DNA from: Gemmatimonadota bacterium
Lineage (GTDB): Bacteria > Desulfobacterota > Deferrimicrobia > Deferrimicrobiales > Deferrimicrobiaceae
Length of the DNA: 58,225 nucleotides
Assembly (NCBI GenBank): GCA_050257455.1
Contig: JBLMWX010000164.1
Coordinates: 1 to 58,225 of the forward strand
Direction of reading: 5' to 3'
The notes beneath the pieces were generated by a model that saw only the letters and a program-made list of their open reading frames with translations, was not told where the DNA came from and searched no databases. The position numbers and the translations under genes were made by a program. This document shows positions 24,415 to 56,292 of this stretch, in pieces. The number at the start of each line of letters is the position of its first letter. Within the stretch, counting starts at the first letter, position 1.

Positions 24415-24415
24415 G

Positions 24416-26021: not shown

Positions 26022-26036
26022 CCGCGCATCCCCTTG

Positions 26037-27669: not shown

Positions 27670-30381
27670 ATGAAGCGTCTCGGGTACCACTGGCTTCTCG
27701 TGTCCGCGGCCCTCGCCTTCATGGGGTTCGTCGGGGTCGCGGAGATCCCCGTTGCCCCTGTCTTGCAGACGGCGGCGGACCACCGGTCTCCCTACGCGAT
27801 CCACGACGCGATCGAGCTCGCGATCTCGCTCCTGCTTGCGGCGGGATTCGTCCTCACGGAGCGCTGGTTCCTCCTCAAGGAGCGCCTCGAGGGGCGCTTC
27901 CGCCTGATCGCCGAGGTGGACCGGTCGCTCGTCGGCCTCCTCGACGAGGAGAAGATCCTGTCCGAGGTCTGCGACGGGATGACCCGGGGACGGGAATACC
28001 GTCTCGCGTGGATCGGCCGCGCGGCGCCCGGCGGCTCCGTCGAGGTCGTCCGGAGCGCCGGCGACGGGCAGGGGCTCCTGGCGAAGATCGACGTCCGCTG
28101 GGACGAATCGCCGGAAGGCCGGGGGCCCGCGGGGAGCTGCCTGAGGACGGGCGAGGCCTGCGTCGTCGACAGGATCGGCGAGGACCCCCGGATGGCGGAA
28201 GGGGAAGCCGCCGCCGCGGCGTTCGGGCTTCGGAGCTGCGCGTCCGTTCGGGTGGATGTCGGCGGCGGCCCGCCGACGGTCCTCACGCTGTACAGCGCGA
28301 AGCGCAACGCGTTCGATGCCGTGGAGATGGGAGCGATCTCGGCGCTGGCGGGGCGCCTGGGCGCGGCCGTCGTCGGAGCCCGGCGCCACGCTCTCTTCGT
28401 TTCCGCCAAGAACGCGTACGACGATCTGCTGAGGACCCAGCGGGACGGGATCATCTGCGTGCGAGGGGGAAAGATCGTCCGCGTCAACCCGGCGGCGGTC
28501 TCGATCCTCGGCTACAACGACGCGACGGGCCTGCTGGGGGGGGACCCGGCCGTGATCCTCGACGACCCCGACGGCGATCCGGATGTCCGGTCGCTGCTGC
28601 GACGCGGCGACCCCGGGGCCGGGCGGTTCGCCTGCGAGGCCGTCGTCCGCCGGGGGAACGGGGGGACGTTCGTCGCGGAGATCGCCGCCACCTGGCTGCC
28701 GCGGCCCGACGGGCTTCGGGCGGAGGGGCCGTCGGGCTGGACGCCCGAGATGCAGGGCCCCCTGGGGATGTTCGTCATCCGGGACATCACCCGGCGGAAG
28801 GAAGCCATGGAGGACCTCCGCGGGGAGCGCGATCTCCGGGGAAAGATCCTCGGCATCGTCGGGGCGCTCGTCGTGCAGCTCGGCCCCGAAGGGGAGATCC
28901 TGCTCGTCAACCGCCAGTGCGAGGAGGTCACGGGTTACCGCGCGGGCGAGCTGGCCGGGCGGCGGTGGGAGGACGTCCTTCTCCCGGCGTCGGCCCGCTC
29001 CCCGTTCCGGGTCGCGTTCGCGAACGCCCTGGCGGGGGGGATCCCCGCCAACGTCGAGTACCCCCTGCTCACGAAATCGGGCGAGACGCGGCTGGTCGCC
29101 TGGAGCCACGCCGCGGTTGCCGGGCCGGCCGGAAAGGCCCGCTCGGTCATTGCCGCGGGAATCGATTTCACGGACCGGCGGCGCCTGGAGGAACAGGTCG
29201 TCGGGATGCAGAAGATGGAGGCGGTCGGAACGCTCGCGGGCGGGATCGCGCACGACTTCAACAACATCCTCACGGGAATCCTGGGCAACCTCGACATCGC
29301 ACGGAAGGCGCTGCCGGACGGGGTGCCGGCCTCGGAGGCCGTGCACGAGGCGATCCGGGCGTCGGAGCGCGCCGCCGTGCTCATCCGCCAGCTCCTCGAA
29401 TTCTCGCGGCGCTCGCCCCTGGAGCGGCGGGCGGTGGACGTCGCGAAGGTCCTCCGGGAGGTCGTTCACCTGTTTTCCCAGACGATCGACCGGCGGATCG
29501 CGGTCGGCTGGACGGCGCCGGACGACCTGTGGCTCGCGGCGGCGGACGTCAACCAGACGCACCAGGTCCTGATGAACCTCTGCGTCAACGCGCGGGACGC
29601 CGTTCTCGAGCGGCTCGAGGCCGGCGGCGGGAACGACGCGCCTCCGGGCGGCTACGCGATCCGGCTCGCGGCGGAGAGCGCCGTGGTCGGCGACGCCTAT
29701 TGCCGGGCGCACAAGTACGCGCGCCCCGGGGAATACGTGCTCCTGACGGTGTCCGACAACGGGACCGGGATGGACGAGGCGACGCAGCGGCGGGTCTTCG
29801 AGCCCTTCTTCACGACGAAGAAGCTCGGGCGGGGGACGGGCCTCGGCCTCTCGACGGTCTACGGGATCGTCAAGCAGCACGACGGGTGGATCAACATGGA
29901 AAGCGCGCCCGGGAAGGGCACCGTGTTCTCGGTGTACCTTCCGAGGGCCGTCGCGGCGACCGCCGCCGACGCCTCTTCCGAGGACGCGCCGGCGGTCCGC
30001 GCCGGGCGGGAGCGGATCCTCTTCGTCGACGACGAGGAGATGATCCGGAATCTCGGCCGCAGGATCCTCGAACGGGACGGGTACACGGTGGTCACGGCGT
30101 CGGACGGCCGCGAGGCGCTCGACATCTTCGCGAGCGAGCGGGCCGCGCTGGACATCGTCATCCTCGACATGACGATGCCTCTGCTGTCGGGCCTCGAGGT
30201 CCTCGAGCGGATGCGGGCCCTGGACCCCGGCGTCCGGGTGATCCTCTCCAGCGGGTATCCCGTCGAGAGCGGGTACGCCGGCTCCATCGGGGCGCGGCCC
30301 GCCGCGTTCCTCCAGAAGCCTTATCGACCGGAGGCGCTGTCGCGGCTGGTGCGCGACGTCCTGGACGGCCGGTCCTCCTGA
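27670..30381 (+). CDS. Hybrid sensor histidine kinase (TM, GAF, PAS, PAS, HisKA, HATPase, REC)
   Basis: HisKA GGIAHDFNNILTGILG, HATPase GTGLGLSTVYGIVKQHDG, receiver ILFVDDEE..VILDMTMP. The start was taken at MKRLGYHW. An upstream TTG at 27595 after GGAGGA is an alternative. Confidence 0.8.
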   Translation: MKRLGYHWLLVSAALAFMGFVGVAEIPVAPVLQTAADHRSPYAIHDAIELAISLLLAAGFVLTERWFLLKERLEGRFRLIAEVDRSLVGLLDEEKILSEVCDGMTRGREYRLAWIGRAAPGGSVEVVRSAGDGQGLLAKIDVRWDESPEGRGPAGSCLRTGEACVVDRIGEDPRMAEGEAAAAAFGLRSCASVRVDVGGGPPTVLTLYSAKRNAFDAVEMGAISALAGRLGAAVVGARRHALFVSAKNAYDDLLRTQRDGIICVRGGKIVRVNPAAVSILGYNDATGLLGGDPAVILDDPDGDPDVRSLLRRGDPGAGRFACEAVVRRGNGGTFVAEIAATWLPRPDGLRAEGPSGWTPEMQGPLGMFVIRDITRRKEAMEDLRGERDLRGKILGIVGALVVQLGPEGEILLVNRQCEEVTGYRAGELAGRRWEDVLLPASARSPFRVAFANALAGGIPANVEYPLLTKSGETRLVAWSHAAVAGPAGKARSVIAAGIDFTDRRRLEEQVVGMQKMEAVGTLAGGIAHDFNNILTGILGNLDIARKALPDGVPASEAVHEAIRASERAAVLIRQLLEFSRRSPLERRAVDVAKVLREVVHLFSQTIDRRIAVGWTAPDDLWLAAADVNQTHQVLMNLCVNARDAVLERLEAGGGNDAPPGGYAIRLAAESAVVGDAYCRAHKYARPGEYVLLTVSDNGTGMDEATQRRVFEPFFTTKKLGRGTGLGLSTVYGIVKQHDGWINMESAPGKGTVFSVYLPRAVAATAADASSEDAPAVRAGRERILFVDDEEMIRNLGRRILERDGYTVVTASDGREALDIFASERAALDIVILDMTMPLLSGLEVLERMRALDPGVRVILSSGYPVESGYAGSIGARPAAFLQKPYRPEALSRLVRDVLDGRSS

Positions 30382-30386
30382 AACAG

Positions 30387-30411
30387 GTTCAGGGACGTTC
30401 CGGAACTTTTC
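30387..30411 (-). repeat. Copy B of the 25-nt junction motif (GAAAAGTTCCGGAACGTCCCTGAAC)
   Basis: One mismatch to copy A (3296-3320). It fills the 28-nt gap between the convergent kinase stop (30379-30381) and the LOG stop (30410-30412). Confidence 0.7.
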
Positions 30412-31387
30412 AGTCGGCCTCGCGGTTGAGGGCGTCGATCAGGAGCCGGAGCCGCCCGAAGCTCTTCCGGTCGAACCGGAAGACGAGGCGCGGGAGGCGG
30501 GCAAGGTCCGGTTCGTCCGTCTCGCCGGGAAGGCCTCCGCCGAGCCGGAAGGTTCCCGACGCGAGGATGTCGGCGAACTCCTGCCGGATCCGCGCGAGCG
30601 CCGCGTCCGAGATCGGCCTTGCGAGGCGGATCACCAGGTCCTTTCCCACGGACCGGGCGCTGTGGAAGACGCGGTAGAACCCGGTGATCTCCGCGGCGGC
30701 CGACCCGGCGTCGTCCGTCACGCGGAACAGGGCGAGGTCCTCCGGAGAGACGAGGCCCCGCCGGAGAATCTCCTCCTCGACGAACGCGAGCCACTTCCGC
30801 CAGTAGTTTCCGCCGGGCTCGTCCACGAGCACGATGGGGATCGGGCGGCTCTTCCCGGTCTGGACGAGCGTCAGGACCTCGAACGACTCGTCCAGGGTGC
30901 CGAAGCCGCCGGGGAACAGGGCCACGCCGTCCGCCTCCTTGACGAAGAGGAGCTTTCGCGTGAAGAAGTATTTGACGTGGACGAGGTTCGCGCCCCCCGC
31001 GACGACCCGGTTGGGGGGCTGCTCGAAGGGGAGCAGGATGTTGATTCCCATCGAGAGGTCCTCGCCTGCCCCGAGATGCGCCGCCTCCATGATGCCGCTG
31101 CCGCCGCCGGTGACGACCATCCATCCGCGCCGGGCCATTTCCCTGCCGAACGCGACCGCCTGGCGGTAGGACGGGGAGCCGGGGGCGCACCGGGCGGAGC
31201 CGAACACCGTGACCTTGCGATAGCTCCGCAGTCCCGCGAACACGCGGAACGAGTGCCTCATCTCCCGCATCGCGCGCGCGAGGAGCTTGATGTCGCCCCG
31301 GTCCGCCCCGTCCGCGGACAGCCGGTCCACGGTCCGGTGCATCTCCGCGATGAGCTCGTCCGCGCTCACTTTCCGGCCGCTTCCCAT
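30410..31387 (-). CDS. LOG-family (TIGR00730-like) nucleotide phosphoribohydrolase with a ~90-aa C-terminal extension
   Basis: VTVFGSAR, VVTGGGSGIMEAA, PGGFGTLDE. Confidence 0.8.
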   Translation of the reverse strand: MGSGRKVSADELIAEMHRTVDRLSADGADRGDIKLLARAMREMRHSFRVFAGLRSYRKVTVFGSARCAPGSPSYRQAVAFGREMARRGWMVVTGGGSGIMEAAHLGAGEDLSMGINILLPFEQPPNRVVAGGANLVHVKYFFTRKLLFVKEADGVALFPGGFGTLDESFEVLTLVQTGKSRPIPIVLVDEPGGNYWRKWLAFVEEEILRRGLVSPEDLALFRVTDDAGSAAAEITGFYRVFHSARSVGKDLVIRLARPISDAALARIRQEFADILASGTFRLGGGLPGETDEPDLARLPRLVFRFDRKSFGRLRLLIDALNREAD

Positions 31388-31444
31388 GACCTAGTCGATG
31401 CGGCAAGGGGCCGCCGCGTTGCCGCGCGCGGCCCGGCCGGCGTC

Positions 31445-32155
31445 TCAGGCGGGGCGGTCGGAGCGCGGGGGCGCTTCGCGTCCTTCGAGGGCGGAGGCGA
31501 TCGCGGCGCGGACGACGTACCCGGACAGGTGCATGATCGTGTCCCGAAGGTCCGGGTCGATTTCCATCGATGCGAGGCACGGATGGTGGTGGTGGCGCAG
31601 GGCGCCCGCGTCGGGCGCCTCTGCGACCCGGGTTCCGGGAAGGACCGACGCGACGAAGCGGGCCGCGCCGCACGGCGCATCGCGCAGCACCGCGGCGGAG
31701 GCGACGCGGTCCCCTTCGCGCCGGATCGCGAAACGGGGGCGGCCGAACGATCCGGCGAAGGCTTCGAGGAACGGGTGCGGCCCGCCGCCGAACCCGCACA
31801 GCGGCCGGGGGAAGGAGCAGGCGATTCCCAGCGCCGCCAGTCGCTTCCGGATCTGGTTCTCCAGCCCCGGGGGGCAGGCCACGCGGTCGTCCACCGCGGC
31901 CAGGACGGCGGCGGCGCCGCACGCTTCGGCGATGTCCGGGATCAGGTCGGCGGCTCCGGCGGTCTCGTGGAGCGACACGAGGAGGTCCGCGCCCGGGATC
32001 GTCGCCGGGAGGACGGCGGCGGGGTCGTCGATCACCGCGGGCAGCCGGCCGGGAAGGGCGAGGAGGGCCGTCTCCCACGCCGCGGGCCCGTTCGCGCGGA
32101 CGTTGGCGGCGATGCGTTCCCCGTATCGTCCCTGGACCGAGAAGAGGATCCTCAT
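31445..32155 (-). CDS. DUF166-family protein
   Basis: Start MRILFSVQGRYGERI (ATG 32155 overlaps the cooC stop, ATGA). Cys-containing motifs VACPPG, PLCGFGGG, APCGAA, HHPCLASM. The family was recalled from memory. Confidence 0.6.
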   Translation of the reverse strand: MRILFSVQGRYGERIAANVRANGPAAWETALLALPGRLPAVIDDPAAVLPATIPGADLLVSLHETAGAADLIPDIAEACGAAAVLAAVDDRVACPPGLENQIRKRLAALGIACSFPRPLCGFGGGPHPFLEAFAGSFGRPRFAIRREGDRVASAAVLRDAPCGAARFVASVLPGTRVAEAPDAGALRHHHHPCLASMEIDPDLRDTIMHLSGYVVRAAIASALEGREAPPRSDRPA

Positions 32156-32901
32156 CGCGACGGGCCCGACAGCAGGGCTTCCACCCCGCGCGCGACGGCG
32201 CCGGCGGCGGGAGAGGCGCCCGGAAGATCGAGAAAGGAGCGGCCGGCGGCCTCCCACCCGGCCAGGGACGGGTCGTGCGGCACCTCGGCCAGAAGCGGCG
32301 CCGGGAGTGCCTCGGCGGGGACGCGCTCCCCGCGGGCGTAGGGCCGGTTGACGAGAAGCCACGTCCGTCCCAGGGGAAGCGCCAGCGAGACGGCGAGATC
32401 GGCGATCGCCCGCGCGGTGGCCATGCCCCGGGGGGACGGGTCCGCGACGAGGACGAGGTGGTCGATGACCCTCAGGTTCCGGCGCGAGAGGTGTTCCATC
32501 CCGGCCTCGTTGTCGACGACGACCGCCCGGTAGCTGCCGGCGAGCCGCGACAGCGACCGGCGCAGGAGGTTGTTGACGTAGCAGTAGCAGCCGGGCCCCT
32601 CGCCGCGACCCATCGTGACGAGATCGACGTCCTCCCCCTCGGACACCCGCTGCTGGACCGCGGCCTCGAGAAGCTCCTCCTTCGGCGCGCCTCCCGCCGG
32701 GGCGGCGAGCAGGTCCTCCCGGAGCGACCCGAGCCCCGCGGGCCGCTCCAGGCCGAGAAGCAGGTGAAGGTTCGCGTTGGGATCCGCGTCGACCGCGAGA
32801 AGCGGGCGCACCCCGGCCGAGGCGAGCCCGCGCAGGATCAGGGCGGCGCATGTCGTCTTGCCGACGCCTCCCTTTCCCGCGACGGCGATCATCGTTGTCA
32901 T
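32152..32901 (-). CDS. cooC: CooC/AcsF-type Ni-insertion ATPase
   Basis: Deviant Walker A AGKGGVGKTT and the CooC signature CYCYV (CxC). The ATG overlaps the upstream stop (ATGA). Confidence 0.85.
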   Translation of the reverse strand: MTTMIAVAGKGGVGKTTCAALILRGLASAGVRPLLAVDADPNANLHLLLGLERPAGLGSLREDLLAAPAGGAPKEELLEAAVQQRVSEGEDVDLVTMGRGEGPGCYCYVNNLLRRSLSRLAGSYRAVVVDNEAGMEHLSRRNLRVIDHLVLVADPSPRGMATARAIADLAVSLALPLGRTWLLVNRPYARGERVPAEALPAPLLAEVPHDPSLAGWEAAGRSFLDLPGASPAAGAVARGVEALLSGPSR

Positions 32902-33941
32902 CCGGCCGCTCCCCGGTGCCTCGCGCCCAGGACCGACGACACCTCGGCCGTCAGCAGGGTCGCCCGCTCCGCCTCCTCCTCCGAGAGCGTCCCGAGCCCG
33001 CACGCGGGGGTGACGAAGGCCGCCCGCGCCAGCGCCCCGCGGCGAATTCCCCTGGCCTCGAAACGGTCGAAGATCGCTTCCATCCGGTCCGCGAGCGTCC
33101 CGGGAGTCTCGCGCGCGATTCCTTCCGCGGTGGTCGGCACGATGCCGAAGGCGATCCTTCCCCCGCGGCCGAGGAACTCCTTCACTTCCGCCGAATAGAG
33201 GACCAGGGCGTCGGCGTAGTCGTACGCGTCGAACGAGAGGTACCGGACGCCCGTGGAGAGCACGAGTCCCCAGTCCGTGTTCGCGCAGCAGTGGATGCCG
33301 CAGAGCACGCCGGGAAGCCCGTCGAAGATCTCGTTCAGCGCCGCGACGACCTCTTCGCGGGACAGCGAGAGGATCGCGGATCCGACCGAGGCGAGGTACG
33401 GCTCGTCCAGCACGAGAATCACGTTCGGGGACAGGCGGGAGAGCGCGCCGGCCTGCCACTGGGCGACCCGGAGGAGATGCTTGACCAGGACGTCGCGCCC
33501 GACGGGATCGTAGAACAGCGGCTTCTTCTCCCGGTCCGTGACCGTCAGGCCGAAGGAGATCGGCCCCGTCACCTGGCCCTTGACGGCGAGGCAAGGGGTG
33601 CGCCCGGCCGCGAGGAGGGCGTGGAGGCCGGCCGCTCGCTCCGCCGGGATGAAGAACGCGGCCGGGTCTCCGGACAGGAACCGCTCGTAGAACGATTCCG
33701 CCTCCACGATCATCCGGTCCCCGCCCTCGACGCAGAGCCGTTCCCCGTCGAGGGCCGCCGCCGGAAGTCCGGACGCGAACTGGACGTACATGCTCTCGAG
33801 AAACGTCCGGCGCGGGAGCTGCGGCCAGTACGGAACGTCCGGGAGCGCGGCGAGGACCGCCTTCACGGCCGCGGCCGGCTCGCGGTGCGGGAGGCTGCCG
33901 ACCCCGGTCGCGGGAAACATGACGGGAAGGGTGATCGTCAT
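32898..33941 (-). CDS. Core-MetE-like Zn methyltransferase (catalytic half of cobalamin-independent methionine synthase only)
   Basis: 347 aa. GIHCCAN gives an HxC Zn-ligand pattern, and FVTPACGLGT resembles MetE PDCGLK. There is no N-terminal MetE half. Confidence 0.6.
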   Translation of the reverse strand: MTITLPVMFPATGVGSLPHREPAAAVKAVLAALPDVPYWPQLPRRTFLESMYVQFASGLPAAALDGERLCVEGGDRMIVEAESFYERFLSGDPAAFFIPAERAAGLHALLAAGRTPCLAVKGQVTGPISFGLTVTDREKKPLFYDPVGRDVLVKHLLRVAQWQAGALSRLSPNVILVLDEPYLASVGSAILSLSREEVVAALNEIFDGLPGVLCGIHCCANTDWGLVLSTGVRYLSFDAYDYADALVLYSAEVKEFLGRGGRIAFGIVPTTAEGIARETPGTLADRMEAIFDRFEARGIRRGALARAAFVTPACGLGTLSEEEAERATLLTAEVSSVLGARHRGAAG

Positions 33942-33942
33942 C

Positions 33943-35607
33943 TCAAGTCTCCGCCGCGAGCGCCGCCCGGTAGCGTTCCGGATCCGTGTGGGGGATGAAC
34001 AGGGCGCGCTGGTACGCCTCCATGAAGCCGGCGTCCGACGACAGGTCGTGGTACGAGGTCGCCGCGGCGAGCCCCACCGCGTCCTGCCAGCGTTTCCGGC
34101 TCCGCACCGCCCCGATTGCGCCGGCGAGCGAGGCGTTGCCGAGGGGGATGAAGCGCGATACGGGGTACGGCGGGAAGAGGCCCAGGTCGAGGGCGGCGCG
34201 GAGGTCGATGAAGTTGCCGAACCCCCCGGCGACGTAGACCCGCCCGACGCTCTCCCGGGGGAGCCCGACCGCCGCGATCAGGGAATCCGCCGCCGCGCAG
34301 AGGGCCGCCTTCGTGCGCAGGACGCTTTTCAGGTCGGACGCGGTGAAGGCGAGGTCGGCGGGCGGGCCGCCCGGCGCGCCTTTCGCGACGAGGAACGCCG
34401 TCCCCCGCCCGGTCTCGACGAACGGGGCGCCGGGACGGACGACGAAACGGCCGGCCCGGTCGACGAGCCCCGCGCGGAACAGCTCGGCGCACAGGTCGAG
34501 GATTCCCGAACCGCAGATGCCCAGGGGCGGACCCCCGCCGATCACCGTCCACTCCGCGGCGAACGTCCGGCGGTCGATCCGCACCGACTCGATGGCCCCC
34601 GGAGACGCGCGCATCCCGCACGCCACCTCGCCGCCCTCGAAGGCCGGGCCCGCCGAGGAGGAACACGCGACGCGGAAGTCCCGGCTGCCGAGGACGACCT
34701 CGCCGTTGGTCCCGACGTCGAACAGCAGCGAGATTTCCTCGTCCCGGTGCATCCCGGACGCAAGGATCCCCGCGACCACGTCGCCCCCGACGAATCCCCC
34801 GATGGACGGGAAGATCCGCCACCGGGAGCCCGGCAGGTCCTTGACGCCCAACTCCGCCCCGTTCTTCACGGGGTATTCCCGGAGCACGGGCCGGTGCGGC
34901 GGGCGGCGGATGGGAGCCGGGGACAGGCCGAACAGGATGTGGGAGAGGACGGTGTTCCCGGCGGCCGTCACCTCGACTACGCGTCCGCCGGCGGGGGCCG
35001 ACTCGATGAGCCCGGACAGGACCGAATCGATCCCGCGGACGAGGAGTCGCCGCAGGATCTCGAAGCCGTCCCGTGTCTCCTCGCCGAACACGATCCGGGA
35101 GATGAGGTCTTCGCCGCACGCCATCTGGGGATTGTCGCCGGACGCGCGGGCGACGACGGCGCCGTCCGACAGGTCGACGAGAGCCGCCGCCAGCGTGCTC
35201 GTGCCGAGGTCGAGGGCGATCCCGAGAGGTCTTCCGGCCTGCGATGCCTCGTAGAGCGGCGCGAACGGACCGTCCGCCGCCATGTCCTTTCCTTCGATGT
35301 AAGCGGCGAGGCGCGCGGGCCGGCTCCCCGGGGGCACCGTGACGGTCACGCCGCCCGAGAGCGGGAGGCAGCGGCAGGCGAGGCGCGTTCCGTTCCGGCG
35401 CTCGTCCGCGGAGAGCACGCCCGGATCGTCCCCCCCCTGCGTCCGGCCCGCGACGACGACCCGGCATTTTCCGCAGCGGCCTTCGCCCCCGCACGGGGCG
35501 ACCAGCGGGACGCCGGCCTTCCTCGCGTGGGCGAGGACCGTCTCGCCGGGCGACAGGCGAGCCTCGGCCCCCTCGGGGAGGAAGCGGAGAGAGCCGGGGC
35601 TATTCAT
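33943..35607 (-). CDS. Reductive activator of corrinoid Fe-S protein (RACo/AcsV): 2Fe-2S ferredoxin plus ASKHA ATPase
   Basis: Start MNSPGSLRFLPEG (ATG 35607). CGGEGRCGKCRV plant-type ferredoxin motif. LDLGTST and FDVGTNGE ASKHA motifs. Confidence 0.85.
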   Translation of the reverse strand: MNSPGSLRFLPEGAEARLSPGETVLAHARKAGVPLVAPCGGEGRCGKCRVVVAGRTQGGDDPGVLSADERRNGTRLACRCLPLSGGVTVTVPPGSRPARLAAYIEGKDMAADGPFAPLYEASQAGRPLGIALDLGTSTLAAALVDLSDGAVVARASGDNPQMACGEDLISRIVFGEETRDGFEILRRLLVRGIDSVLSGLIESAPAGGRVVEVTAAGNTVLSHILFGLSPAPIRRPPHRPVLREYPVKNGAELGVKDLPGSRWRIFPSIGGFVGGDVVAGILASGMHRDEEISLLFDVGTNGEVVLGSRDFRVACSSSAGPAFEGGEVACGMRASPGAIESVRIDRRTFAAEWTVIGGGPPLGICGSGILDLCAELFRAGLVDRAGRFVVRPGAPFVETGRGTAFLVAKGAPGGPPADLAFTASDLKSVLRTKAALCAAADSLIAAVGLPRESVGRVYVAGGFGNFIDLRAALDLGLFPPYPVSRFIPLGNASLAGAIGAVRSRKRWQDAVGLAAATSYHDLSSDAGFMEAYQRALFIPHTDPERYRAALAAET

Positions 35608-36952
35608 GGACCGGCGCGAACGCGTCGGGGGGCAGCCGGCGCAGGTAGCCCGGCAGGGCGGACGACTCCTGCGGGCCGACGAGGACACGCCAGCGCGAGA
35701 GTTCCTCGACGCGCCCGGACAGGCGCGCCACCATTCCCGGGACGATGAGGGTCCGGTGCGCGACCGCGGAGGCGATGCCGCTCTCGGCGAGGATCCGGGC
35801 GATGCTCTCGCCGGTGAACTTTCCGGCGGCCCACGCCGTCAGCACCGACATCCCGTCGCACTCCGCGATCAGCAGGTGCGCCGGGACCTTGGATGCCTCC
35901 ACGTCGCTGCGGACCGTGAAGAAGGTGAGGGAGAAATTCGTCGTGACGATCACCGGCGAAGCGGCCGTCGGTGCCCCGACCGGGTAGATCCCCGGCTCCA
36001 CCTGGATGGGGCGCTGGGGATCCGTGAAGATGTTCTGGCGCAGCGTGAGCAGGGGGAAGACGTCGGCAGGGTCCGCGGTGTCGAGGACGAGGAGGGAGCC
36101 GTATTTCGGGATGAGGACGGCGGCGGCGGCGAAGGGGAAGGGGAAATCCCCGCCCAGGTCGAATGCCGTCGGGTACGCCATGTCCGCCGCGCGGTGCGCG
36201 ATCGCCAGTCGGCGGATCGCGACGGACGCCGCGACCGCCTCCGGAACCGTGGCGGCGGACGGGTCGGCGACGAGCTCGCGGGCCCCCGCCGCGCGGGCCG
36301 CGGCCAGGCCCGCGGCAAGGCCGGAGAGCCCCCGGGCCTTGACGATCAGCGGCAGGCCGCGCGACCCCGCGAGCCGCGCCCCCGCCTCCGTTTCCCCCGG
36401 CGGGGGAGCGAGGATCGGGCGCGACGGCCCCACCGCTTCGACCGCCGCCGCAAGCGCGTCGCACGGGGCCAGAAGAACGAGCGGCTTCCCCGCTCCCGCG
36501 AGGGCGGCGGCCGCGACGGCGGCGTAGCGGCGGGGGTCGCCCGACCGGTGCCGCACGGCGACGCAATCGACCGCGAGGCGCTGTCCCACCCGCTCGAACG
36601 CGAGGGTCCGGATCGCCGCCACGCGTTCCCGCAGCGCGTCCTCCCCGAGGTCGTCGGCGACGGAGACGGCGATCGCCGTGGGGTGGTAGAAGGTCTTCTC
36701 GTGCCGGAAGAGGACGATCTCGTCCCCGAGGACGACGGCGCCGTCCCCGGTCCCGACCGTCACGCGCGGCAGCGGCGGCGCGGCGGCCTTTCCGAGCGTC
36801 TCCTTCGCCTCCGGCGACGCGGGCGGGCACCGGTCGATCCCGGCCTTCCCCGCGGCCAGCTGCATCGCGAACGCGAGGCACGTGGGGAAGCCGCACTCCC
36901 GGCAGTTGGTCTTCGGGAGCAGCTTGTAGATGTCGATCGCGGTCAGCGCCAC
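35600..36952 (-). CDS. acsC: Corrinoid iron-sulfur protein large subunit AcsC (CdhE-like)
   Basis: GTG 36952. N-terminal 4Fe-4S motif LPKTNCRECGFPTCLAFAMQLA. C-terminal B12-binding region. Confidence 0.85.
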   Translation of the reverse strand: MALTAIDIYKLLPKTNCRECGFPTCLAFAMQLAAGKAGIDRCPPASPEAKETLGKAAAPPLPRVTVGTGDGAVVLGDEIVLFRHEKTFYHPTAIAVSVADDLGEDALRERVAAIRTLAFERVGQRLAVDCVAVRHRSGDPRRYAAVAAAALAGAGKPLVLLAPCDALAAAVEAVGPSRPILAPPPGETEAGARLAGSRGLPLIVKARGLSGLAAGLAAARAAGARELVADPSAATVPEAVAASVAIRRLAIAHRAADMAYPTAFDLGGDFPFPFAAAAVLIPKYGSLLVLDTADPADVFPLLTLRQNIFTDPQRPIQVEPGIYPVGAPTAASPVIVTTNFSLTFFTVRSDVEASKVPAHLLIAECDGMSVLTAWAAGKFTGESIARILAESGIASAVAHRTLIVPGMVARLSGRVEELSRWRVLVGPQESSALPGYLRRLPPDAFAPVHE

Positions 36953-37863
36953 GCGTGCCTCCCGAGCGCGGTCACGGTTTCGGGGTGCCGGCAGACGACG
37001 AGGTCCGCGCCCGCGGCCAGGCACGCCCACCCCGTTGCCTCCTCCCAGCGGCGGCCCCGGGCGTCGACGTCCCCCCATCCCGTCTCCGACGCGTCGATGG
37101 CCTCGCGGGCCTTCCACGCGTCGCCCAGGTGGCAGAGGATCGGGCGGTCGAGCATCGCGTCCCCGGACAGCCCGGCGAGCCGGATCCGCTCGACGATCGA
37201 GTACGTGTATTCCAGGCCGTACCCGAGCCCCCCGGTCAGCGGGTCGATCAGGACCCGCTCCGGGGGAAACCCCGTGTCCGACAGGAGGAGATTGACCTGC
37301 TTCGCCATGTTGATGTCGATGGGCGACCACGCGACAACCCCGTGTCCATAGGCCATCGCGGCGCCCGCCAGGAGGCGGTAGTTCTTCTCGTCCGCGTACG
37401 ACAGGAAAACCGGCCGCGGGGCGGCCTCCGCCACGGCCGGGAACAGCGTCGCGTCGACGGCGTCGTCGCCGGAGCCGCCGACGATCACCGGGTGCGGGAC
37501 GGCAGCGAGCACCCGGCGCGCCGTCTCCGCGCCCTCGGACACGGTCCGGCCGCCGCCGTCCGGGTGGCAGCCCGACAGGGAGAGAAACAGGAACCGGGCG
37601 CCGCACTCCAGCGCGAAGAAGCGTGCCAGCGCGACGGGGTCGTCCGCCCGGTCCCCGTACGCCCGCGCGAGCGACGGCGGCAGGTCGCCGACTTCGGTGC
37701 GGATCTCCAGCCCCACGGCGGCGGGGTTCGGAACGTCGCCCTCCGGGAGGAGGGGGAGGACGTTCTGCCCGCCCACGGTCAGGGGATGTCCTCCCGTGGC
37801 CGCGGGGAGAGTCACCGGCAGGACGCGGCCCGGAAAGCGCTGCTCGGGGAACGGGACGCTCAC
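36943..37863 (-). CDS. acsD: Corrinoid iron-sulfur protein small subunit AcsD (CdhD-like)
   Basis: GTG 37863 overlaps the acsB stop (GTGA). TIM-barrel-like sequence, GGLGYGLEYTYS motif. The rest of tracked ORF 36943-40353 lies out of frame over acsB and is an artefact. Confidence 0.8.
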   Translation of the reverse strand: MSVPFPEQRFPGRVLPVTLPAATGGHPLTVGGQNVLPLLPEGDVPNPAAVGLEIRTEVGDLPPSLARAYGDRADDPVALARFFALECGARFLFLSLSGCHPDGGGRTVSEGAETARRVLAAVPHPVIVGGSGDDAVDATLFPAVAEAAPRPVFLSYADEKNYRLLAGAAMAYGHGVVAWSPIDINMAKQVNLLLSDTGFPPERVLIDPLTGGLGYGLEYTYSIVERIRLAGLSGDAMLDRPILCHLGDAWKAREAIDASETGWGDVDARGRRWEEATGWACLAAGADLVVCRHPETVTALGRHAWR

Positions 37864-39980
37864 AGGAGCGGGCCCATCGAAAGCGCCGGATGGCCGACCT
37901 TCTTCAGGTATTCGACGAGCGACTCGGGCGAAAGCGCGACGGACTCGTCGGCGATCTTGTCGACGAGCCCGGGAACGCCGATCTCCTCGGCGCGCTTCCG
38001 AAGGGCCGGCCCGAGCTGCTCCTTCATCTCCCGGGTCATCCAGACGAGCCGCGGGAGGCCCCCCTCGGCCGCGAGGAACTTGCGGCTCAGGAGGTACTGC
38101 TTGCCCACCCCCATGAACCCGGGCGTCTGGACGCCTCCGCCCACCGATCCGGCGAGGGTCGAGAACCCCATCCCGCACGGCGTCTCGGACCCCGTGAACT
38201 CGCGGTTGACCGCCATGACCCCGTTGGCCTCGGGGATGACCGCCAGGACGCACTCGAAGCAGCCGCACGACGTCATCGGCGCGTCCATGATCGAGTAGAG
38301 GTTGAATCCGGGCACCGTGTTCCTCGACTGTTCCCGCACGAAGGCGTTGACCCGCTCCCACGCTCCCTTGACGGGATCGAGCACCGCGCCCTTCGCGACG
38401 GGCTGGTTCGGCCCCGTCGGGGTGATCTCGTGGCTCGCCTTTCCGTCGAGCCAGCTGATGGCGCCGCAGAGCCCCAGCCGCTCGGGCGTGACGATGCAGA
38501 CGTGGTTCGGGGCGAACGACTGGCACAGCGTGCACGAGTAGAATTCGGAGACGGCGTCGTCGGTGAGGGTCCGCGCCCGGGCGTCCCGGTCCGCGTAGAT
38601 CGCCCGCGCCCCGGCGAGGCCGGCCTGGACCTCCTCCCCGCGGGTGGTGATGGAGACCGACACCTTGTCGACGATGTTCTCGAAGTCCGCGAGCATCCGA
38701 GCCCTGACCATCGTGCCGAGATCGCGGAGGGTGAATCCCCTGGCGGCCGCCTCGTCGGAGATCCGGATCCACGTCGTGTCGCGCTGGGCGACGTGCATCG
38801 TCCCCTCCCCGTAGTTGACGATCCGGTGAATGCGGCGCTCGAGGACCGATTCGAAGTCCTTCTGCATCCTCGCCCCGGCGACGGTCACGACGAGCGCCAG
38901 CGGGAGGGCGCCCCCCCGCGGAGCGTCGGGAATGTCGGGGCCCGACACGGCGATCTCGCCGTCCCGCACGTCCGCAAGGGGGGCGGTGACGACGAGCTCG
39001 TAGGCGGCCGTCCGTCCCCCGCCGAACTCGACGCGCGTGTCCGACTTCCGGATCCGCTCCCCCTCGTACGCGGGCCCGAAGGCGATCGGGATCGGGATCT
39101 TGACGATCTTCGCCTTGATCCCGCGCGCCTCGATCCCGGCCCGCGCCATCGCCTCGCCGGCGGGCCGCGACAGGAGCAGGCCGGGGATCTCGGGAACCGG
39201 CTGGTCCGACAGGACGGTGAGCCCCGCCTTCATCGCGCCCGCCGCGATCGCCAGAGACACGTCGTCCGCGGGCCCGAGCGCGCACACGAACGCCCGGATG
39301 CGGTTCGCAAGGTACGAGAGCATCGCGTCGGCCTGCCCGCGGCCGAGGCCCCCGAAGGTCAGTCCTGCCCGGACCGCGAAATTGACGGCATGGATGACCG
39401 CCGGCAGGGGCCCGAGCGGGAACGTCCGGAAATCCTCCCCCTGCTTGACGCCCGCCGCCTCCATCTGGCCGGCCACGTCGCCCGCGAGGAACACGAGGAG
39501 CCCGATTTCCTGGAAATCCCGGATCATCGCGGCGGCCGCGGCAGGGTCCGATGCCTTCCCGACGACGACGGCGACGCCCGGGACGGAGCCGTCGACCATG
39601 AAGATCCCGAGCTTCCGCAACACCGGGTCCGGGATGAATCCGACGGCGGGCGGCGGGTACGGATTCCCCGCCTCGTGCGAGAGCGCTCCCAGAACCTCCG
39701 CGGCGAGGAGGGTCGCGGCGCCGGCATTGAGGGCGTTCTCCGCCGAGGGGGTGTCCGCGACGAGCCGCTCCGCGAGCTCGAGGACGGGGACGGCATCCGC
39801 CAGCGTGGCGACCCGGATGTCGGAGAGGCCGAAGACGACCGGCAGCTCGTACGCCGTCTCCGGGTAGCGGAGCGGCGCCCCGGGGCCGCGGGCCTCCGTC
39901 CGGGCGCGCAAGGTATCCCGGGCCAGGGAGAGAACCGTCCTGGCTCCCCGGATGCAGGAGGAAAACAGCCCTTCGGTCAT
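37860..39980 (-). CDS. acsB: Acetyl-CoA synthase catalytic subunit AcsB (bacterial long form with N-terminal domain)
   Basis: RBS AAGGAG 8 nt upstream. A-cluster region CTLCQSFAPNHVC ... MTSCGCFEC. 706 aa. Confidence 0.9.
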   Translation of the reverse strand: MTEGLFSSCIRGARTVLSLARDTLRARTEARGPGAPLRYPETAYELPVVFGLSDIRVATLADAVPVLELAERLVADTPSAENALNAGAATLLAAEVLGALSHEAGNPYPPPAVGFIPDPVLRKLGIFMVDGSVPGVAVVVGKASDPAAAAAMIRDFQEIGLLVFLAGDVAGQMEAAGVKQGEDFRTFPLGPLPAVIHAVNFAVRAGLTFGGLGRGQADAMLSYLANRIRAFVCALGPADDVSLAIAAGAMKAGLTVLSDQPVPEIPGLLLSRPAGEAMARAGIEARGIKAKIVKIPIPIAFGPAYEGERIRKSDTRVEFGGGRTAAYELVVTAPLADVRDGEIAVSGPDIPDAPRGGALPLALVVTVAGARMQKDFESVLERRIHRIVNYGEGTMHVAQRDTTWIRISDEAAARGFTLRDLGTMVRARMLADFENIVDKVSVSITTRGEEVQAGLAGARAIYADRDARARTLTDDAVSEFYSCTLCQSFAPNHVCIVTPERLGLCGAISWLDGKASHEITPTGPNQPVAKGAVLDPVKGAWERVNAFVREQSRNTVPGFNLYSIMDAPMTSCGCFECVLAVIPEANGVMAVNREFTGSETPCGMGFSTLAGSVGGGVQTPGFMGVGKQYLLSRKFLAAEGGLPRLVWMTREMKEQLGPALRKRAEEIGVPGLVDKIADESVALSPESLVEYLKKVGHPALSMGPLL

Positions 39981-40146
39981 CTCGTGCGCTCCTTGTTCGC
40001 GAGGCGGGAAGTGGGGGACATCGGAAAATTGTAACCCGGGGCGCGGCCCGCCTCGAAAAAAAACGCGCCGGGCCCGGGGGGCGTCGCGGGCGCCGCCGCC
40101 GGAGGGCGGCGCGGCCGGGCCCGGGGTCGTCCGTTGGTCTCATTTG

Positions 40147-40160
40147 CGACAAAGATGTCG
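40147..40160. promoter_or_regulatory. Palindrome CGACA-AAGA-TGTCG, candidate enhancer-binding-protein site
   Basis: Lies in an AT-richer patch about 75-90 bp upstream of the amtB sigma-54 element. Confidence 0.3.
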
Positions 40161-40233
40161 AAAATGGATCCTTCTTGTATCGCCGAAGTCCCGGCCTGCC
40201 GGAAATCTCCTTCCGCGCCGCCGCCCGCGCCTC

Positions 40234-40249
40234 CGGCACGCCCGTTGCT
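40234..40249 (+). promoter_or_regulatory. Sigma-54 promoter (CGGCACG-CCCG-TTGCT) for amtB
   Basis: 15 of 16 positions match TGGCACG-N4-TTGCW. It lies about 50 nt upstream of ATG 40298. Confidence 0.65.
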
Positions 40250-40297
40250 GCGACCCGGCGTGGAGTCGGCACCCCATCAACGAAGGAGGAGACGGAC

Positions 40298-41518
40298 ATG
40301 AACGCGGGCGACACGGCGTGGCTGCTGCTCTCGGCGGCTCTCGTCATGATCATGACCCCCGGCCTGGCGCTGTTCTACGGGGGGATGGTCCGCAGGAAGA
40401 ACATCCTCGGAACCATCATGCAGTCGTTCATCATCATCGGGGTCATCAGCGTGGAGTGGATCCTCGTCGGGTACAGCATGGCCTTCGGGCCCGACCGGGG
40501 CCACGTCATCGGCGACCTCTCCTGGTTCGGTCTCGCCGGCGTCGGGCTTGCCCCCTTCGCCGGGTACGCGGCGACGGTTCCCCACCAGGCATTCATGATC
40601 TACCAGATGATGTTCGCCGTCATCACGCCGGCGCTCATCACGGGGGCATTCGCCGAGCGGTTCAGGTTTTCGACGTTTCTCGTCTTCACCGCCCTGTGGG
40701 CGCTCCTGGTCTACAACCCGGTCGCGCACTGGGTCTGGGGAATCGGCGGCTGGATCCGGAACCTCGGGGCGCTCGATTTCGCCGGGGGGACCGTCGTCCA
40801 CATCACCTCGGGGGCGAGCGCCCTCGCGGCGGCCCTCGTCGTCGGGAAGCGGAAGGGATTCGGCGCCGAGAACATGGCGCCCCACAACCTGCCCATGACG
40901 GTGCTCGGCGCGGCCATCCTCTGGTTCGGGTGGTTCGGCTTCAACGCGGGGAGCGCGCTCGCGGCGGGCGCGCTTTCGACGAGCGCCTTCGTGGCGACCC
41001 ACGCGGCGGCGGCCGCGGCGACGCTGTCGTGGGTCGCCGCCGAGTGGGTCCACCGGGGAAAGCCCACGGTCCTCGGCGCGGCCTCCGGCTGCGTCGCCGG
41101 GCTGGTCGCGATCACGCCCGCCTCCGGCTTCGTCACGCCGCTCGGCGCGCTCCTGGTCGGCGTCCTGGCCGGGGCTGCGTGCTACAGCGCCGTCATGCTC
41201 AAGGGGCGGCTGGGATACGATGACTCCCTCGACGTGGTCGGCGTCCACTGCGTCGGCGGGACGCTGGGCGCCCTGGCCACCGGGCTGCTGGCGACGACGG
41301 CCGTCAACGCGTCGGGGGCCGACGGCCTCTTCTACGGGAATGCGAGGCTCCTCGCGGTGCAGGCGCTCGCCGCCGGCGTCTCCCTCGTCTACTCCTTCGG
41401 GGTGAGCTGGCTCCTCCTCGCGCTCCTCGACAAGACGCTGGGGCTGCGGGTCTCGACGGAAGACGAGGTGATGGGTCTCGACCTGACCCAGCACGGGGAG
41501 TCCGGCTACAACTGGTAG
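40298..41518 (+). CDS. amtB: Ammonium transporter AmtB
   Basis: RBS AAGGAGGA. DTAWLLLSAALVMIMTPGLALFYGG, FAGGTVVHITSG, VHCVGG. Confidence 0.9.
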   Translation: MNAGDTAWLLLSAALVMIMTPGLALFYGGMVRRKNILGTIMQSFIIIGVISVEWILVGYSMAFGPDRGHVIGDLSWFGLAGVGLAPFAGYAATVPHQAFMIYQMMFAVITPALITGAFAERFRFSTFLVFTALWALLVYNPVAHWVWGIGGWIRNLGALDFAGGTVVHITSGASALAAALVVGKRKGFGAENMAPHNLPMTVLGAAILWFGWFGFNAGSALAAGALSTSAFVATHAAAAAATLSWVAAEWVHRGKPTVLGAASGCVAGLVAITPASGFVTPLGALLVGVLAGAACYSAVMLKGRLGYDDSLDVVGVHCVGGTLGALATGLLATTAVNASGADGLFYGNARLLAVQALAAGVSLVYSFGVSWLLLALLDKTLGLRVSTEDEVMGLDLTQHGESGYNW

Positions 41519-56285: not shown

Positions 56286-56292
56286 GTGAGCC

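What the first reader, a model, noticed from the sequence alone, without database searches (positions are those of the whole stretch)
30410..39980. ACS/CFeSP operon with no CODH and no AcsE, but a core-MetE-like methyltransferase, CooC, DUF166 and LOG
Seen in sequence: eight minus-strand genes run acsB, acsD, acsC, RACo, a 347-aa MetE-catalytic-half-like protein, cooC, DUF166 and LOG. The first seven are joined by overlaps of 4-10 nt or a 1-nt gap (GTGA/ATGA junctions). Only LOG is separated, by 57 nt. The operon is bounded upstream by a 317-bp promoter region shared with divergent amtB, and downstream by a convergent kinase gene. Its full content is therefore visible, and it contains no cooS/acsA and no pterin-binding AcsE. 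The 347-aa protein carries MetE-type Zn-ligand patterns (GIHCC as HxC, and PACGLG resembling PDCGLK). Established knowledge, from memory: canonical bacterial acs clusters pair AcsB with CODH and with the methyl-H4folate:CFeSP methyltransferase AcsE. Dehalococcoides mccartyi is the described exception. It has an incomplete Wood-Ljungdahl pathway run in the acetyl-CoA-cleaving direction, and a short core-MetE that uses methylcobalamin. Inference: this operon may encode a self-contained route from acetyl-CoA via methyl-CFeSP to homocysteine (methionine) or another acceptor. Here the core-MetE is physically linked to the CFeSP and RACo genes. The co-transcribed DUF166 and LOG-like genes have no assigned role in such a pathway.
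Basis: partly seen in the sequence, partly recalled or inferred. Interest (0 to 1): 0.78.

Follow-up and report, generated by a model that had tools for sequence, protein, structure and literature searches.

The report
CODH-less acetyl-CoA-to-methionine operon
A seven-gene operon joins an acetyl-CoA synthase that has no CO dehydrogenase, its corrinoid protein and helpers to a MesB-type "core" methionine synthase; this fits the acetate-to-methionine methyl route proposed for Dehalococcoides, here in one transcription unit in a different bacterial lineage.

Summary
Eight minus-strand genes lie at 30410-39980 with exactly the junctions described. No cooS, acsE or fhs homologue lies anywhere on the 58-kb contig.

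The 347-aa protein is a MesB-family core methionine synthase. It is 42% identical (292 bits) to the biochemically characterised Dehalococcoides mccartyi enzyme. It keeps all four Zn ligands and the homocysteine-binding Ser and Asp. Its high-confidence model matches MetE structures better than MtaA or URO-D.

The cassette acsB-acsD-acsC-RACo-mesB-cooC-DUF166 is the same wherever the flanks are present in 16 related loci (Deferrimicrobiaceae/MBNT15-type MAGs). None has a CODH within 10 kb. Chloroflexota control loci do show cooS beside acsB.

LOG follows the cassette only in the closest relatives, so it is a clade-specific neighbour and not a core part. DUF166 does have a lead: in Methanococcus maripaludis a cooC2-DUF166 pair is genetically required for CODH/ACS-dependent autotrophy.

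The pathway idea (acetyl-CoA to methyl-CoFeSP to MesB to methionine, with CO released) is already published for Dehalococcoides and for MesB in general. This is therefore a new member of a known kind with an unusually complete operon. Whether the whole genome lacks CODH, AcsE, MetF and MetH could not be tested.

The parts
37860..39980 (-). acsB: acetyl-CoA synthase/decarbonylase, the Ni-Ni-[4Fe4S] A-cluster subunit, with the N-terminal domain that contacts CODH in bifunctional enzymes
   Evidence: NCBIfam NF040764 scores 914.5 bits against a cut-off of 800. Pfam finds CODH_A_N, CdhC and ACS_CODH_B_C. The A-cluster ligands C483, C486, C495, C505 and C572-G-C574 are all present. Their spacing equals that of the Moorella enzyme as I recall its numbering.
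36943..37863 (-). [quoted passage not shown]
   Evidence: NCBIfam NF003376 scores 283.4 bits against a cut-off of 280, and Pfam finds CdhD. The GTG start overlaps the acsB stop by 4 nt.
35600..36952 (-). acsC: large CoFeSP subunit, with an N-terminal Fe-S cluster motif and a corrinoid-binding domain
   Evidence: NCBIfam NF003195 scores 500.8 bits against a cut-off of 306. Pfam finds FeS plus CdhD. The N-terminal sequence is CRECGFPTC...C.
33943..35607 (-). RACo: ATP-dependent reductive activator of the corrinoid protein
   Evidence: Pfam finds Fer2, Raco_middle and RACo_C_ter, all above their cut-offs. The AcsV model scores 418 bits, below its 800-bit cut-off.
32898..33941 (-). mesB: MesB-family core methionine synthase, predicted to act as a methyl-corrinoid:homocysteine methyltransferase
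   Evidence: It is 42% identical over 319 aa to D. mccartyi core-MetE, at 275 bits by blastp and 292 bits by phmmer. Residues S16, D179, H217, C219, D238 and C314 are conserved in 113 of 113 close homologues, apart from one alignment gap at S16. The AF2 model has pLDDT 96.1. The best Foldseek matches are MetE structures.
32152..32901 (-). cooC-type P-loop Ni-insertion ATPase, most likely serving the ACS A-cluster because no CODH is encoded nearby
   Evidence: The best PDB match is C. hydrogenoformans CooC1 (3kje) at E 1.5e-15, with the CxC motif aligned. It has a GKGGVGKT P-loop and C105-x-C107.
31445..32155 (-). DUF166 protein, a candidate accessory or maturation factor of ACS/CoFeSP with a conserved Cys/His site
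   Evidence: Pfam PF02593 scores 144.9 bits. Conserved residues are QGxYGxR, C120, P-C162-G, H189-H190-x-P-C193 and M208-H209. It always follows cooC in the cassette. Genetic evidence comes from M. maripaludis.
30410..31387 (-). LOG/TIGR00730 (type II LOG-like) protein, a clade-specific downstream neighbour that is not part of the conserved cassette
   Evidence: TIGR00730 scores 105.5 bits against a cut-off of 96.35. The best PDB match is TT1465 at 1e-39. It is present after DUF166 only in L085 and L086. It is absent within 10 kb in the 65-74% identity relatives.
39981..40297 (.). 317-bp divergent intergenic region between acsB and amtB
   Evidence: A T-run, GGGTTACAAT and an AAGGAG ribosome-binding site within about 90 nt of the acsB ATG are conserved with L085. 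No Rfam family matches here.

Best explanation
The seven overlapping genes acsB-acsD-acsC-RACo-mesB-cooC-DUF166 form one transcription unit. [quoted passage not shown]

Proposed steps:
1. AcsB works as an acetyl-CoA decarbonylase without a CODH partner. It splits acetyl-CoA into CoA, CO and a methyl group.
2. [quoted passage not shown]
3. MesB, a Zn-dependent enzyme equivalent to the catalytic half of MetE, transfers the methyl from methyl-CoFeSP to homocysteine and makes methionine.
4. RACo re-reduces inactive Co(II) at the cost of ATP.
5. The CooC-type ATPase, probably together with DUF166, loads or maintains the metals of the ACS active site.
6. CO is a by-product.

Shown here: the identity of every protein, intact catalytic residues, the translationally coupled gene arrangement and its conservation, and the absence of CODH, AcsE and Fhs from the locus.

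Inferred: the direction of the ACS reaction, CoFeSP as the direct methyl donor of MesB, the role of DUF166, and the absence of CODH and AcsE from the rest of the genome.

LOG is a neighbouring gene found only in the closest relatives and is not part of the mechanism.
For: Family assignments above curated cut-offs for acsB, acsD, acsC, RACo, DUF166 and LOG. cooC-like reaches only the general Pfam family CbiA; its assignment rests on the 3kje (CooC1) match and the aligned CxC motif.

MesB membership:
- It scores 292 bits and is 42% identical to the characterised D. mccartyi core-MetE. That sequence was recovered through the published primer, and its residue numbering matches the paper.
- This is above the 130- and 173-bit thresholds of PMC7857596.
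- The Zn ligands and the homocysteine-binding Ser and Asp are invariant in the clade.
- The fold matches MetE better than MesD, MtaA or URO-D.

ACS is likely active: all A-cluster ligands are present.

The cassette is identical wherever the flanks are present in 16 related loci at 65-80% identity: L001, L002, L005-L014, L043, L085 and L086.

No CooS or FTHFS homologue occurs in the window or in those loci. The same queries detect cooS beside acsB in Chloroflexota loci L081 and L046.

The literature reports that MBNT15/Deferrimicrobium genomes lack Fhs and a complete CODH/ACS (PMC9386147).

The acetate-to-methionine route and the MesB-CoFeSP link were proposed in PMC7005905 and PMC7857596.

A cooC2-DUF166 pair is required for CODH/ACS-dependent autotrophy in M. 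maripaludis.
Against: - Only one 58-kb contig of the genome is visible. A cooS, acsE, metF, metH or metE elsewhere cannot be excluded.
- Most MesB-bearing organisms surveyed in PMC7857596 have a complete Wood-Ljungdahl pathway.
- No direct methyl transfer from CoFeSP to any MesB has been shown, even in Dehalococcoides.
- No SAM, methionine or B12 riboswitch precedes the operon, so there is no regulatory evidence for a methionine role.
- The lineage carries a cbb3 oxidase next to this oxygen-sensitive machinery. This implies the module can work only under anoxic or micro-oxic conditions.
- The fate of the CO is unexplained.
Confidence: 0.62

Rival explanations
1. The operon is the carbonyl-branch and CoFeSP part of an ordinary, complete Wood-Ljungdahl pathway. 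Its CODH (cooS/acsA), AcsE and methyl-branch genes lie elsewhere in the genome. MesB only draws some methyl groups off CoFeSP for methionine, as proposed for most MesB-bearing anaerobes.
For: Only 58 kb of the genome is visible. [quoted passage not shown] AcsB keeps the N-terminal CODH_A_N domain that contacts CODH in bifunctional enzymes.
Against: No cooS, fhs or pterin-binding gene lies on the contig or within 10 kb of the cassette in 16 relatives. In the control loci cooS sits directly beside acsB. PMC9386147 reports that MBNT15 genomes lack Fhs and a complete CODH/ACS. By the published accounts D. mccartyi also runs an AcsB without CODH; from memory, its AcsB keeps the N-terminal domain too.
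Confidence: 0.2
2. The MesB-like enzyme does not make methionine. It either methylates a different thiol, or runs backwards as a demethylase that loads CoFeSP from a methylated sulfur compound so that ACS can build acetyl-CoA from external CO.
For: Price et al. note that some MesB paralogues and distant homologues may have other functions or corrinoid partners. His122, which was proposed to ligate cobalamin in the Dehalococcoides enzyme, is Gln here.
Against: The homocysteine-binding Ser16 and Asp179 and all four Zn ligands are conserved. The characterised relative is specific for homocysteine and inactive on cysteine, glutathione and DTT. Gln at position 123 is the majority state of the whole family (113 of 145 representatives), so it is not a sign of divergence. 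There is no CO source, and no methyl-donor-specific methyltransferase in the operon. Demethylating a thioether onto Co(I) is energetically unfavourable, by general chemical reasoning.
Confidence: 0.08
3. The cassette is a decaying or silent remnant of a lost Wood-Ljungdahl pathway and has no present function.
For: The surrounding pathway appears incomplete, and earlier genome papers simply scored the pathway as absent.
Against: All seven genes are intact and translationally coupled. They are conserved in order at 65-80% identity across many MAGs, and every catalytic residue that was checked is preserved.
Confidence: 0.03

Closest known systems
Dehalococcoides mccartyi incomplete Wood-Ljungdahl pathway with core-MetE/MesB (Zhuang 2014 as described in PMC7005905; PMC7857596)
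   Same: Both have AcsB with AcsCD and no CODH or AcsE in the locus. Both have a 343-347-aa MesB with His-Cys-Asp-Cys Zn ligands, and the two enzymes are 42% identical. The proposed flow is the same: acetyl-CoA to methyl-CoFeSP to homocysteine, with CO as waste.
   Different: In D. mccartyi, mesB sits with the SAM synthetase and SAH hydrolase genes, not with acs. Here mesB lies inside the acs operon between RACo and cooC. The host here is a Deferrimicrobiaceae/MBNT15-type respirer with a cbb3 oxidase and a pyruvate dehydrogenase on the same contig, not an obligate organohalide respirer. His122 of the D. mccartyi enzyme is Gln here.
mesB-acsC-acsD operons of some methanogens (PMC7857596, Fig 3B text)
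   Same: mesB is physically clustered with the CoFeSP genes, which suggests direct methyl hand-over.
   Different: Those organisms have full CODH/ACS (ACDS) complexes. As described there, the cluster holds acsC and acsD. Here acsB, RACo, cooC and DUF166 are also in the same unit.
Canonical bacterial acs cluster (cooS/acsA-acsB-acsC-acsD-acsE-cooC, as in acetogens and sulfate reducers; seen here in Chloroflexota loci L081 and L046)
   Same: The AcsB, AcsC, AcsD, RACo and CooC families are the same. DUF166 also occurs in such clusters (L046).
   Different: This cassette has no cooS and no acsE, and carries a methionine synthase instead. In L081 and L046 cooS lies directly beside acsB, and mesB is a separate gene on the other strand.
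cooC2-DUF166 pair of Methanococcus maripaludis (bioRxiv 10.1101/2024.03.05.583561)
   Same: A CooC paralogue with the CxC motif lies next to a DUF166 gene beside the ACS genes. Both genes are needed for ACS-dependent growth there.
   Different: In M. maripaludis a CODH and a second CooC are present, so the target of the pair is ambiguous. Here no CODH is linked, which points to ACS or CoFeSP as the client. This is an inference.

Membership tests
MesB core methionine synthase (PMC7857596) | Sequence similarity to the characterised D. mccartyi enzyme (at least 130 bits in the proteome survey, at least 173 bits in the phylogenetic profiling) | tested here: met
   phmmer gives 292 bits and blastp 275 bits, with 42% identity over 319 aa, to the 343-aa D. 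mccartyi protein from L004. That protein was found with the published primer A481_fw. It ends in KHGTV like the reverse primer and has H122, H215, C217, D236 and C312 as published.
MesB core methionine synthase (PMC7857596) | A single MetE catalytic-half domain with no N-terminal folate-binding half | tested here: met
   The protein is 347 aa with no Meth_synt_1 hit and only a weak C-terminal Meth_synt_2 hit. The AF2 model is a single domain with pLDDT 96. The top 19 Foldseek matches in PDB are MetE structures at E about 6e-9; I did not check which half of those two-domain chains the model aligns to. MtaA scores 5e-7 and URO-D 2e-5.
MesB core methionine synthase (PMC7857596) | Zn ligands His-x-Cys, Asp/Glu and Cys, plus the homocysteine-binding Ser and Asp | tested here: met
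   H217, C219, D238, C314, S16 and D179 are conserved in 113 of 113 close homologues (one alignment gap at S16) and in at least 94% of 145 distant representatives.
MesB core methionine synthase (PMC7857596) | The genome encodes the CoFeSP subunits AcsC and AcsD | tested here: met
   acsD and acsC are in the same operon.
MesB core methionine synthase (PMC7857596) | Methyl-corrinoid:homocysteine methyltransferase activity, with no use of methyl-THF | not testable with these tools
   This needs an enzyme assay.
Dehalococcoides-type CODH-less ACS (acetyl-CoA cleavage for C1 supply) | AcsB and AcsCD present and apparently functional | tested here: met
   Curated models are passed and all A-cluster Cys ligands are present.
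Dehalococcoides-type CODH-less ACS (acetyl-CoA cleavage for C1 supply) | No Ni-CODH (cooS/acsA) in the genome | tested here: inconclusive
   None was found on the 58-kb contig or within 10 kb of the cassette in 16 relatives. The positive controls worked. PMC9386147 reports an incomplete CODH/ACS in the lineage.
Dehalococcoides-type CODH-less ACS (acetyl-CoA cleavage for C1 supply) | No AcsE, MetF, MetH or full-length MetE in the genome | tested here: inconclusive
   None of these domains is on the contig or in the Pfam lists of L001, L002, L085 and L086. This could not be tested genome-wide.
Dehalococcoides-type CODH-less ACS (acetyl-CoA cleavage for C1 supply) | The methionine methyl group derives from acetate C2, and CO is released | not testable with these tools
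   This needs isotope labelling and CO measurement.
Canonical bacterial CODH/ACS (acs) gene cluster | cooS/acsA and the pterin-binding acsE are clustered with acsB, acsC and acsD | tested here: not met
   The operon is bounded by divergent amtB and a convergent kinase, and it holds neither gene.
CooC/AcsF-type Ni-insertion ATPase | Deviant Walker A P-loop, a CxC metal motif, and similarity to CooC1 | tested here: met
   It has GKGGVGKT and C105-x-C107. The best PDB match is CooC1 (3kje) at E 1.5e-15 with CxC aligned. No curated CooC- or AcsF-specific model matched in NCBIfam.
DUF166 (PF02593) | Pfam model match above the gathering score | tested here: met
   The score is 144.9 bits against a cut-off of 24.4. 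The selenoprotein DfsP model scores only 54 bits against 200, so this protein is not that subfamily.
LOG / TIGR00730 | Model match above the cut-off and the PGGxGTxxE motif | tested here: met
   TIGR00730 scores 105.5 bits against 96.35. The motifs are PGGFGTLDE and TGGGSGIM. The best solved relatives are type-II LOG proteins.

The most novel reading that the evidence does not exclude
The cassette may be a self-sufficient, portable module that moves methyl groups from acetyl-CoA to methionine. It would let a respiratory, oxidase-bearing lineage with no folate methyl branch and no CODH make methionine, releasing CO. Because no CODH is present, the conserved cooC-DUF166 pair would be a dedicated metal-delivery system for the ACS A-cluster (or CoFeSP). 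That would give DUF166, with its conserved Cys/His site and HHHHPC motif, its first biochemical role.
Probability: 0.3. Interest if true: 0.62.

Novelty: new member of a known kind. Interest (0 to 1): 0.45.

Why it matters
Nobody has yet shown which protein gives MesB its methyl group. This operon is strong genomic evidence, in a bacterium, that it is the Wood-Ljungdahl corrinoid protein, because mesB is translationally coupled to acsB, acsCD and RACo.

It extends the "incomplete Wood-Ljungdahl pathway for methionine" from Dehalococcoidia to Deferrimicrobiaceae/MBNT15. In that lineage earlier genome papers simply scored the pathway as absent.

It offers a compact seven-gene set for reconstituting the route in vitro or in a heterologous host.

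It narrows the possible client of the genetically essential but uncharacterised DUF166/CooC2 pair to ACS or CoFeSP rather than CODH.

It also implies that these widespread sediment and groundwater bacteria are small biological sources of CO.

Tried and rejected
1. Sequence searches of the 347-aa protein against PDB found nothing useful, either alone or as a 32-sequence profile. Fold comparison was needed instead.
2. Exact look-ups of the window's MesB and DUF166 proteins in the contig index failed, so I made the window's gene calls myself with a codon-usage model.
3. I looked for a riboswitch or other RNA element upstream of acsB. Rfam gave nothing at gathering thresholds over the whole window, and only a chance miRNA hit (E 0.4) in the intergenic region.
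4. A GC-rich hairpin followed by a T8 run 60-140 nt upstream of acsB looked like a terminator or attenuator. It folds no better than shuffled sequence (z 0.70) and its stem is not conserved in L085. Only the T-run and the TACAAT box are conserved, so I rejected it as a structured element.
5. The consensus promoter and terminator scan of 30200-40400 found nothing above chance.
6. The DUF166 model (pLDDT 87) has no significant solved homologue. The best Foldseek E-value is 1.9e-3 with TM 0.34, to generic Rossmann folds, so the fold gives no functional assignment.
7. The supplementary tables of the MBNT15 genome paper do not list acs, cooS or methionine synthase genes.
8. Zhuang et al. 2014 is not in the held library.
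9. I considered LOG as an operon member and rejected it because it is absent from the 65-74% identity relatives.

Full report
**Observation**

The window is a high-GC contig (about 70% GC), so raw ORF lists are crowded with spurious frames. I fixed the real frames by locating the protein N-termini and their start codons. Eight minus-strand genes occupy 30410-39980:
- acsB 37860-39980
- acsD 36943-37863
- acsC 35600-36952
- RACo 33943-35607
- a 347-aa gene 32898-33941
- a cooC-like gene 32152-32901
- DUF166 31445-32155
- LOG 30410-31387

Divergent amtB starts 317 bp upstream of acsB. A convergent PAS/GAF hybrid histidine kinase ends 28 nt beyond LOG.

Pfam and NCBIfam place six products in the expected families above curated cut-offs:
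- AcsB: NF040764, 914 bits
- AcsC: NF003195, 501 bits
- AcsD: NF003376, 283 bits
- RACo: three Pfam domains
- DUF166: 145 bits
- LOG: TIGR00730, 105 bits

The cooC-like product reaches only the general Pfam family CbiA. Its CooC assignment rests on the PDB match described below.

**The rest of the contig**

I called 51 genes with a codon-usage model trained on the confident genes. I scanned 40 of the other 43 against Pfam; three ORFs of 45-64 aa were not scanned. No Prismane/CODH, pterin-binding AcsE, MTHFR, Fhs, MetH or full-length MetE is present.

The contig does carry:
- a cbb3-type oxidase cluster (ccoN, O, P, G, FixH and a P-type ATPase, 19680-27422)
- a pyruvate dehydrogenase complex (55272-58225)
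- a malic enzyme
- molybdenum-cofactor genes
- a type IV pilus cluster

This is the genome of a respiring bacterium, not of an acetogen.

**The 347-aa protein**

By sequence alone it is elusive. It has no Pfam or NCBIfam hit at E 0.01 or better, only Meth_synt_2 at E 0.014 over its C-terminus, and nothing in PDB by sequence or profile. Three independent lines identify it.

1. *Similarity to the characterised enzyme.* I recovered the D. mccartyi core-MetE by scanning metagenome contigs for the published cloning primer. The resulting 343-aa protein ends in KHGTV like the reverse primer. It has H122, H215, C217, D236 and C312 exactly as published (PMC7005905). The window protein is 42% identical to it over 319 residues, at 275 bits by blastp and 292 bits by phmmer. 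That is well above the 130- and 173-bit limits used to define MesB (PMC7857596).
2. *Conserved residues.* The Zn ligands H217, C219, D238 and C314 and the homocysteine-binding S16 and D179 are invariant in 113 close homologues apart from one alignment gap at S16, and nearly so in 145 distant representatives.
3. *Fold.* An AlphaFold2 model (pLDDT 96.1, pTM 0.94) matches MetE structures best. The top 19 hits have E about 6e-9. MesD (3rpd) scores 1e-7, MtaA (4ay7) 5e-7 and URO-D (2eja) 2e-5.

One difference from the Dehalococcoides enzyme is His122, which was proposed to ligate cobalamin. It is Gln here. Gln is also the majority state in the family.

**Conservation of the cassette**

The MesB family is large. 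It has 2034 representatives at 50% clustering with E at most 1e-3.

I examined 16 related loci at 65-80% MesB identity, from MAGs labelled Deferrimicrobiaceae, Ca. Deferrimicrobium or "Deltaproteobacteria". These are L001, L002, L005-L014, L043, L085 and L086. Wherever the contig extends far enough, the order acsB-acsD-acsC-RACo-mesB-cooC-DUF166 is identical. None has a CODH, AcsE, MTHFR or Fhs gene within 10 kb.

In 66 further genomes, mostly Chloroflexota at 40-49% identity, mesB stands apart from acs genes. In two of the exceptions (L081, L046) a 670-aa Prismane/CODH gene lies directly beside acsB. I used those two CooS proteins and an FTHFS as tblastn queries. They recovered each other and a third locus, but nothing in the window or in any Deferrimicrobiaceae locus. 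The absence is therefore not a detection failure.

LOG and the divergent amtB accompany the cassette only in the two closest relatives, L085 and L086. LOG is a type-II LOG/TIGR00730 protein. It is best treated as a clade-specific neighbour.

**Accessory genes**

AcsB keeps every A-cluster ligand: C483, C486, C495, C505 and C572-G-C574.

The P-loop protein's best solved relative is CooC1 of C. hydrogenoformans, at E 1.5e-15 with the CxC metal motif aligned.

DUF166 is not a blank. In M. maripaludis a cooC2-DUF166 pair divergent from the CODH/ACS operon is cofit with the cdh genes (r 0.94-0.99). A clean duf166 deletion abolishes autotrophy and can be complemented. In my alignment DUF166 has an invariant or near-invariant Cys/His constellation: C120, P-C162-G, H189-H190-x-P-C193 and H209. 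In this clade the motif reads HHHHPC. Its model has no significant solved homologue. Because this cassette has no CODH, the simplest inference is that the CooC-DUF166 pair serves ACS or CoFeSP. This is an inference and has not been shown.

**Mechanism and status**

The best explanation is the one proposed for Dehalococcoides, described in PMC7005905 and generalised to the MesB family in PMC7857596:
- AcsB cleaves acetyl-CoA.
- The methyl group goes to CoFeSP.
- MesB passes it to homocysteine.
- CO leaves.
- RACo and the CooC/DUF166 pair keep the cofactors active.

The same reading has already been applied to CODH-less ACS genes in Ca. Auribacterota MAGs (PMC9324843). For MBNT15/Deferrimicrobium, published genome analyses only noted an incomplete pathway and concluded that it was absent (PMC9386147; PMC8443593). 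I found no paper describing this cassette.

The finding is therefore a new member of a known kind. It adds a new lineage and a new, unusually complete operon arrangement. It does not add a new mechanism.

**Limits**

- Genome-wide absence of CODH, AcsE, MetF and MetH could not be tested, because the tools give access only to this contig and to 10-kb flanks in relatives.
- No regulatory RNA links the operon to methionine or B12.
- The direction of the ACS reaction, the direct CoFeSP-MesB hand-over and the fate of CO all remain inferences.

Noticed in passing
window 19680-30381: A cbb3-type cytochrome oxidase cluster lies next to the oxygen-sensitive ACS operon. It comprises ccoN 26037-27422, ccoO 25053-26021, ccoP-like 24416-24883, ccoG-like 23638-24414, FixH 22823-23641, a DsbD_2 protein, and a P-type ATPase 19680-22169. 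Only a PAS/GAF hybrid histidine kinase (27595-30381) separates the two. The order cassette, kinase, cbb3 recurs in L002. The kinase might couple expression of the cassette to oxygen or redox state.
   Followed up: partly
window (whole contig); P0325: The DUF166 search returned a 100% identical protein on an NCBI contig of exactly 58225 bp, labelled "MAG: ... [Gemmatimonadota bacterium]". Every close relative of the cassette comes from Deferrimicrobiaceae, Ca. Deferrimicrobium or "Deltaproteobacteria" MAGs. Either the taxonomic label or the binning of this contig looks doubtful.
   Followed up: partly
window 41671-42546 (-); L001 3097-3951; L002 2711-3562; L085 1253-2128: A roughly 290-aa protein with what looks, by eye, like an N-terminal signal peptide and no Pfam hit lies in the window upstream of the acs cassette, beyond amtB. 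At the matching position in L001, L002 and L085 a gene of similar size with no Pfam hit is called; I did not compare the sequences. In L001 it ends 10 nt before acsB on the same strand. In the window and in L085, amtB sits between it and acsB on the opposite strand. Its function is unknown.
   Followed up: no
window 40000-40070 (minus strand, upstream of acsB): A T8 run, GGGTTACAAT (a TACAAT -10-like box) and an AAGGAG ribosome-binding site are conserved between the window and L085, although the rest of the spacer has diverged. This is probably the operon promoter. The GC hairpin just upstream is neither conserved nor unusually stable.
   Followed up: yes
window 31445-32155 (DUF166), residues 187-193: In the Deferrimicrobiaceae clade the conserved HHxPC motif of DUF166 is expanded to HHHHPC. 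This histidine run is reminiscent of nickel-binding chaperones. More distant DUF166 proteins have HHYPC, HHFPC or HLHPC.
   Followed up: partly
window 1346-3318: A fused FdhD/NarQ-MobA protein (473 aa) is followed by MobB, which are molybdopterin guanine dinucleotide cofactor genes. This suggests that Mo/W-bisPGD enzymes such as formate dehydrogenase or nitrate reductase are encoded elsewhere in the genome.
   Followed up: no
window 30410-31387 (LOG): The LOG-family domain covers only residues 58-234. The protein has a roughly 57-aa N-terminal extension and a roughly 90-aa C-terminal extension, and neither matches any family.
   Followed up: no
L046 (Ca. Aquidulcis MAG) 31-9876: In this Chloroflexota locus DUF166 (7052-7759) sits inside a canonical cluster that also holds fhs, a 243-aa ORF with no Pfam hit, cooS, a GNAT gene and acsB. 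DUF166 therefore also travels with complete CODH/ACS clusters in bacteria.
   Followed up: partly
window 8560-10167 and L001 17346-18743: A B12-binding radical SAM protein with a DUF4070 domain lies about 20 kb from the cassette in the window. A B12-binding radical SAM gene also lies within 7 kb of the cassette in L001. This may be only synteny, but it is another corrinoid-dependent enzyme nearby.
   Followed up: no
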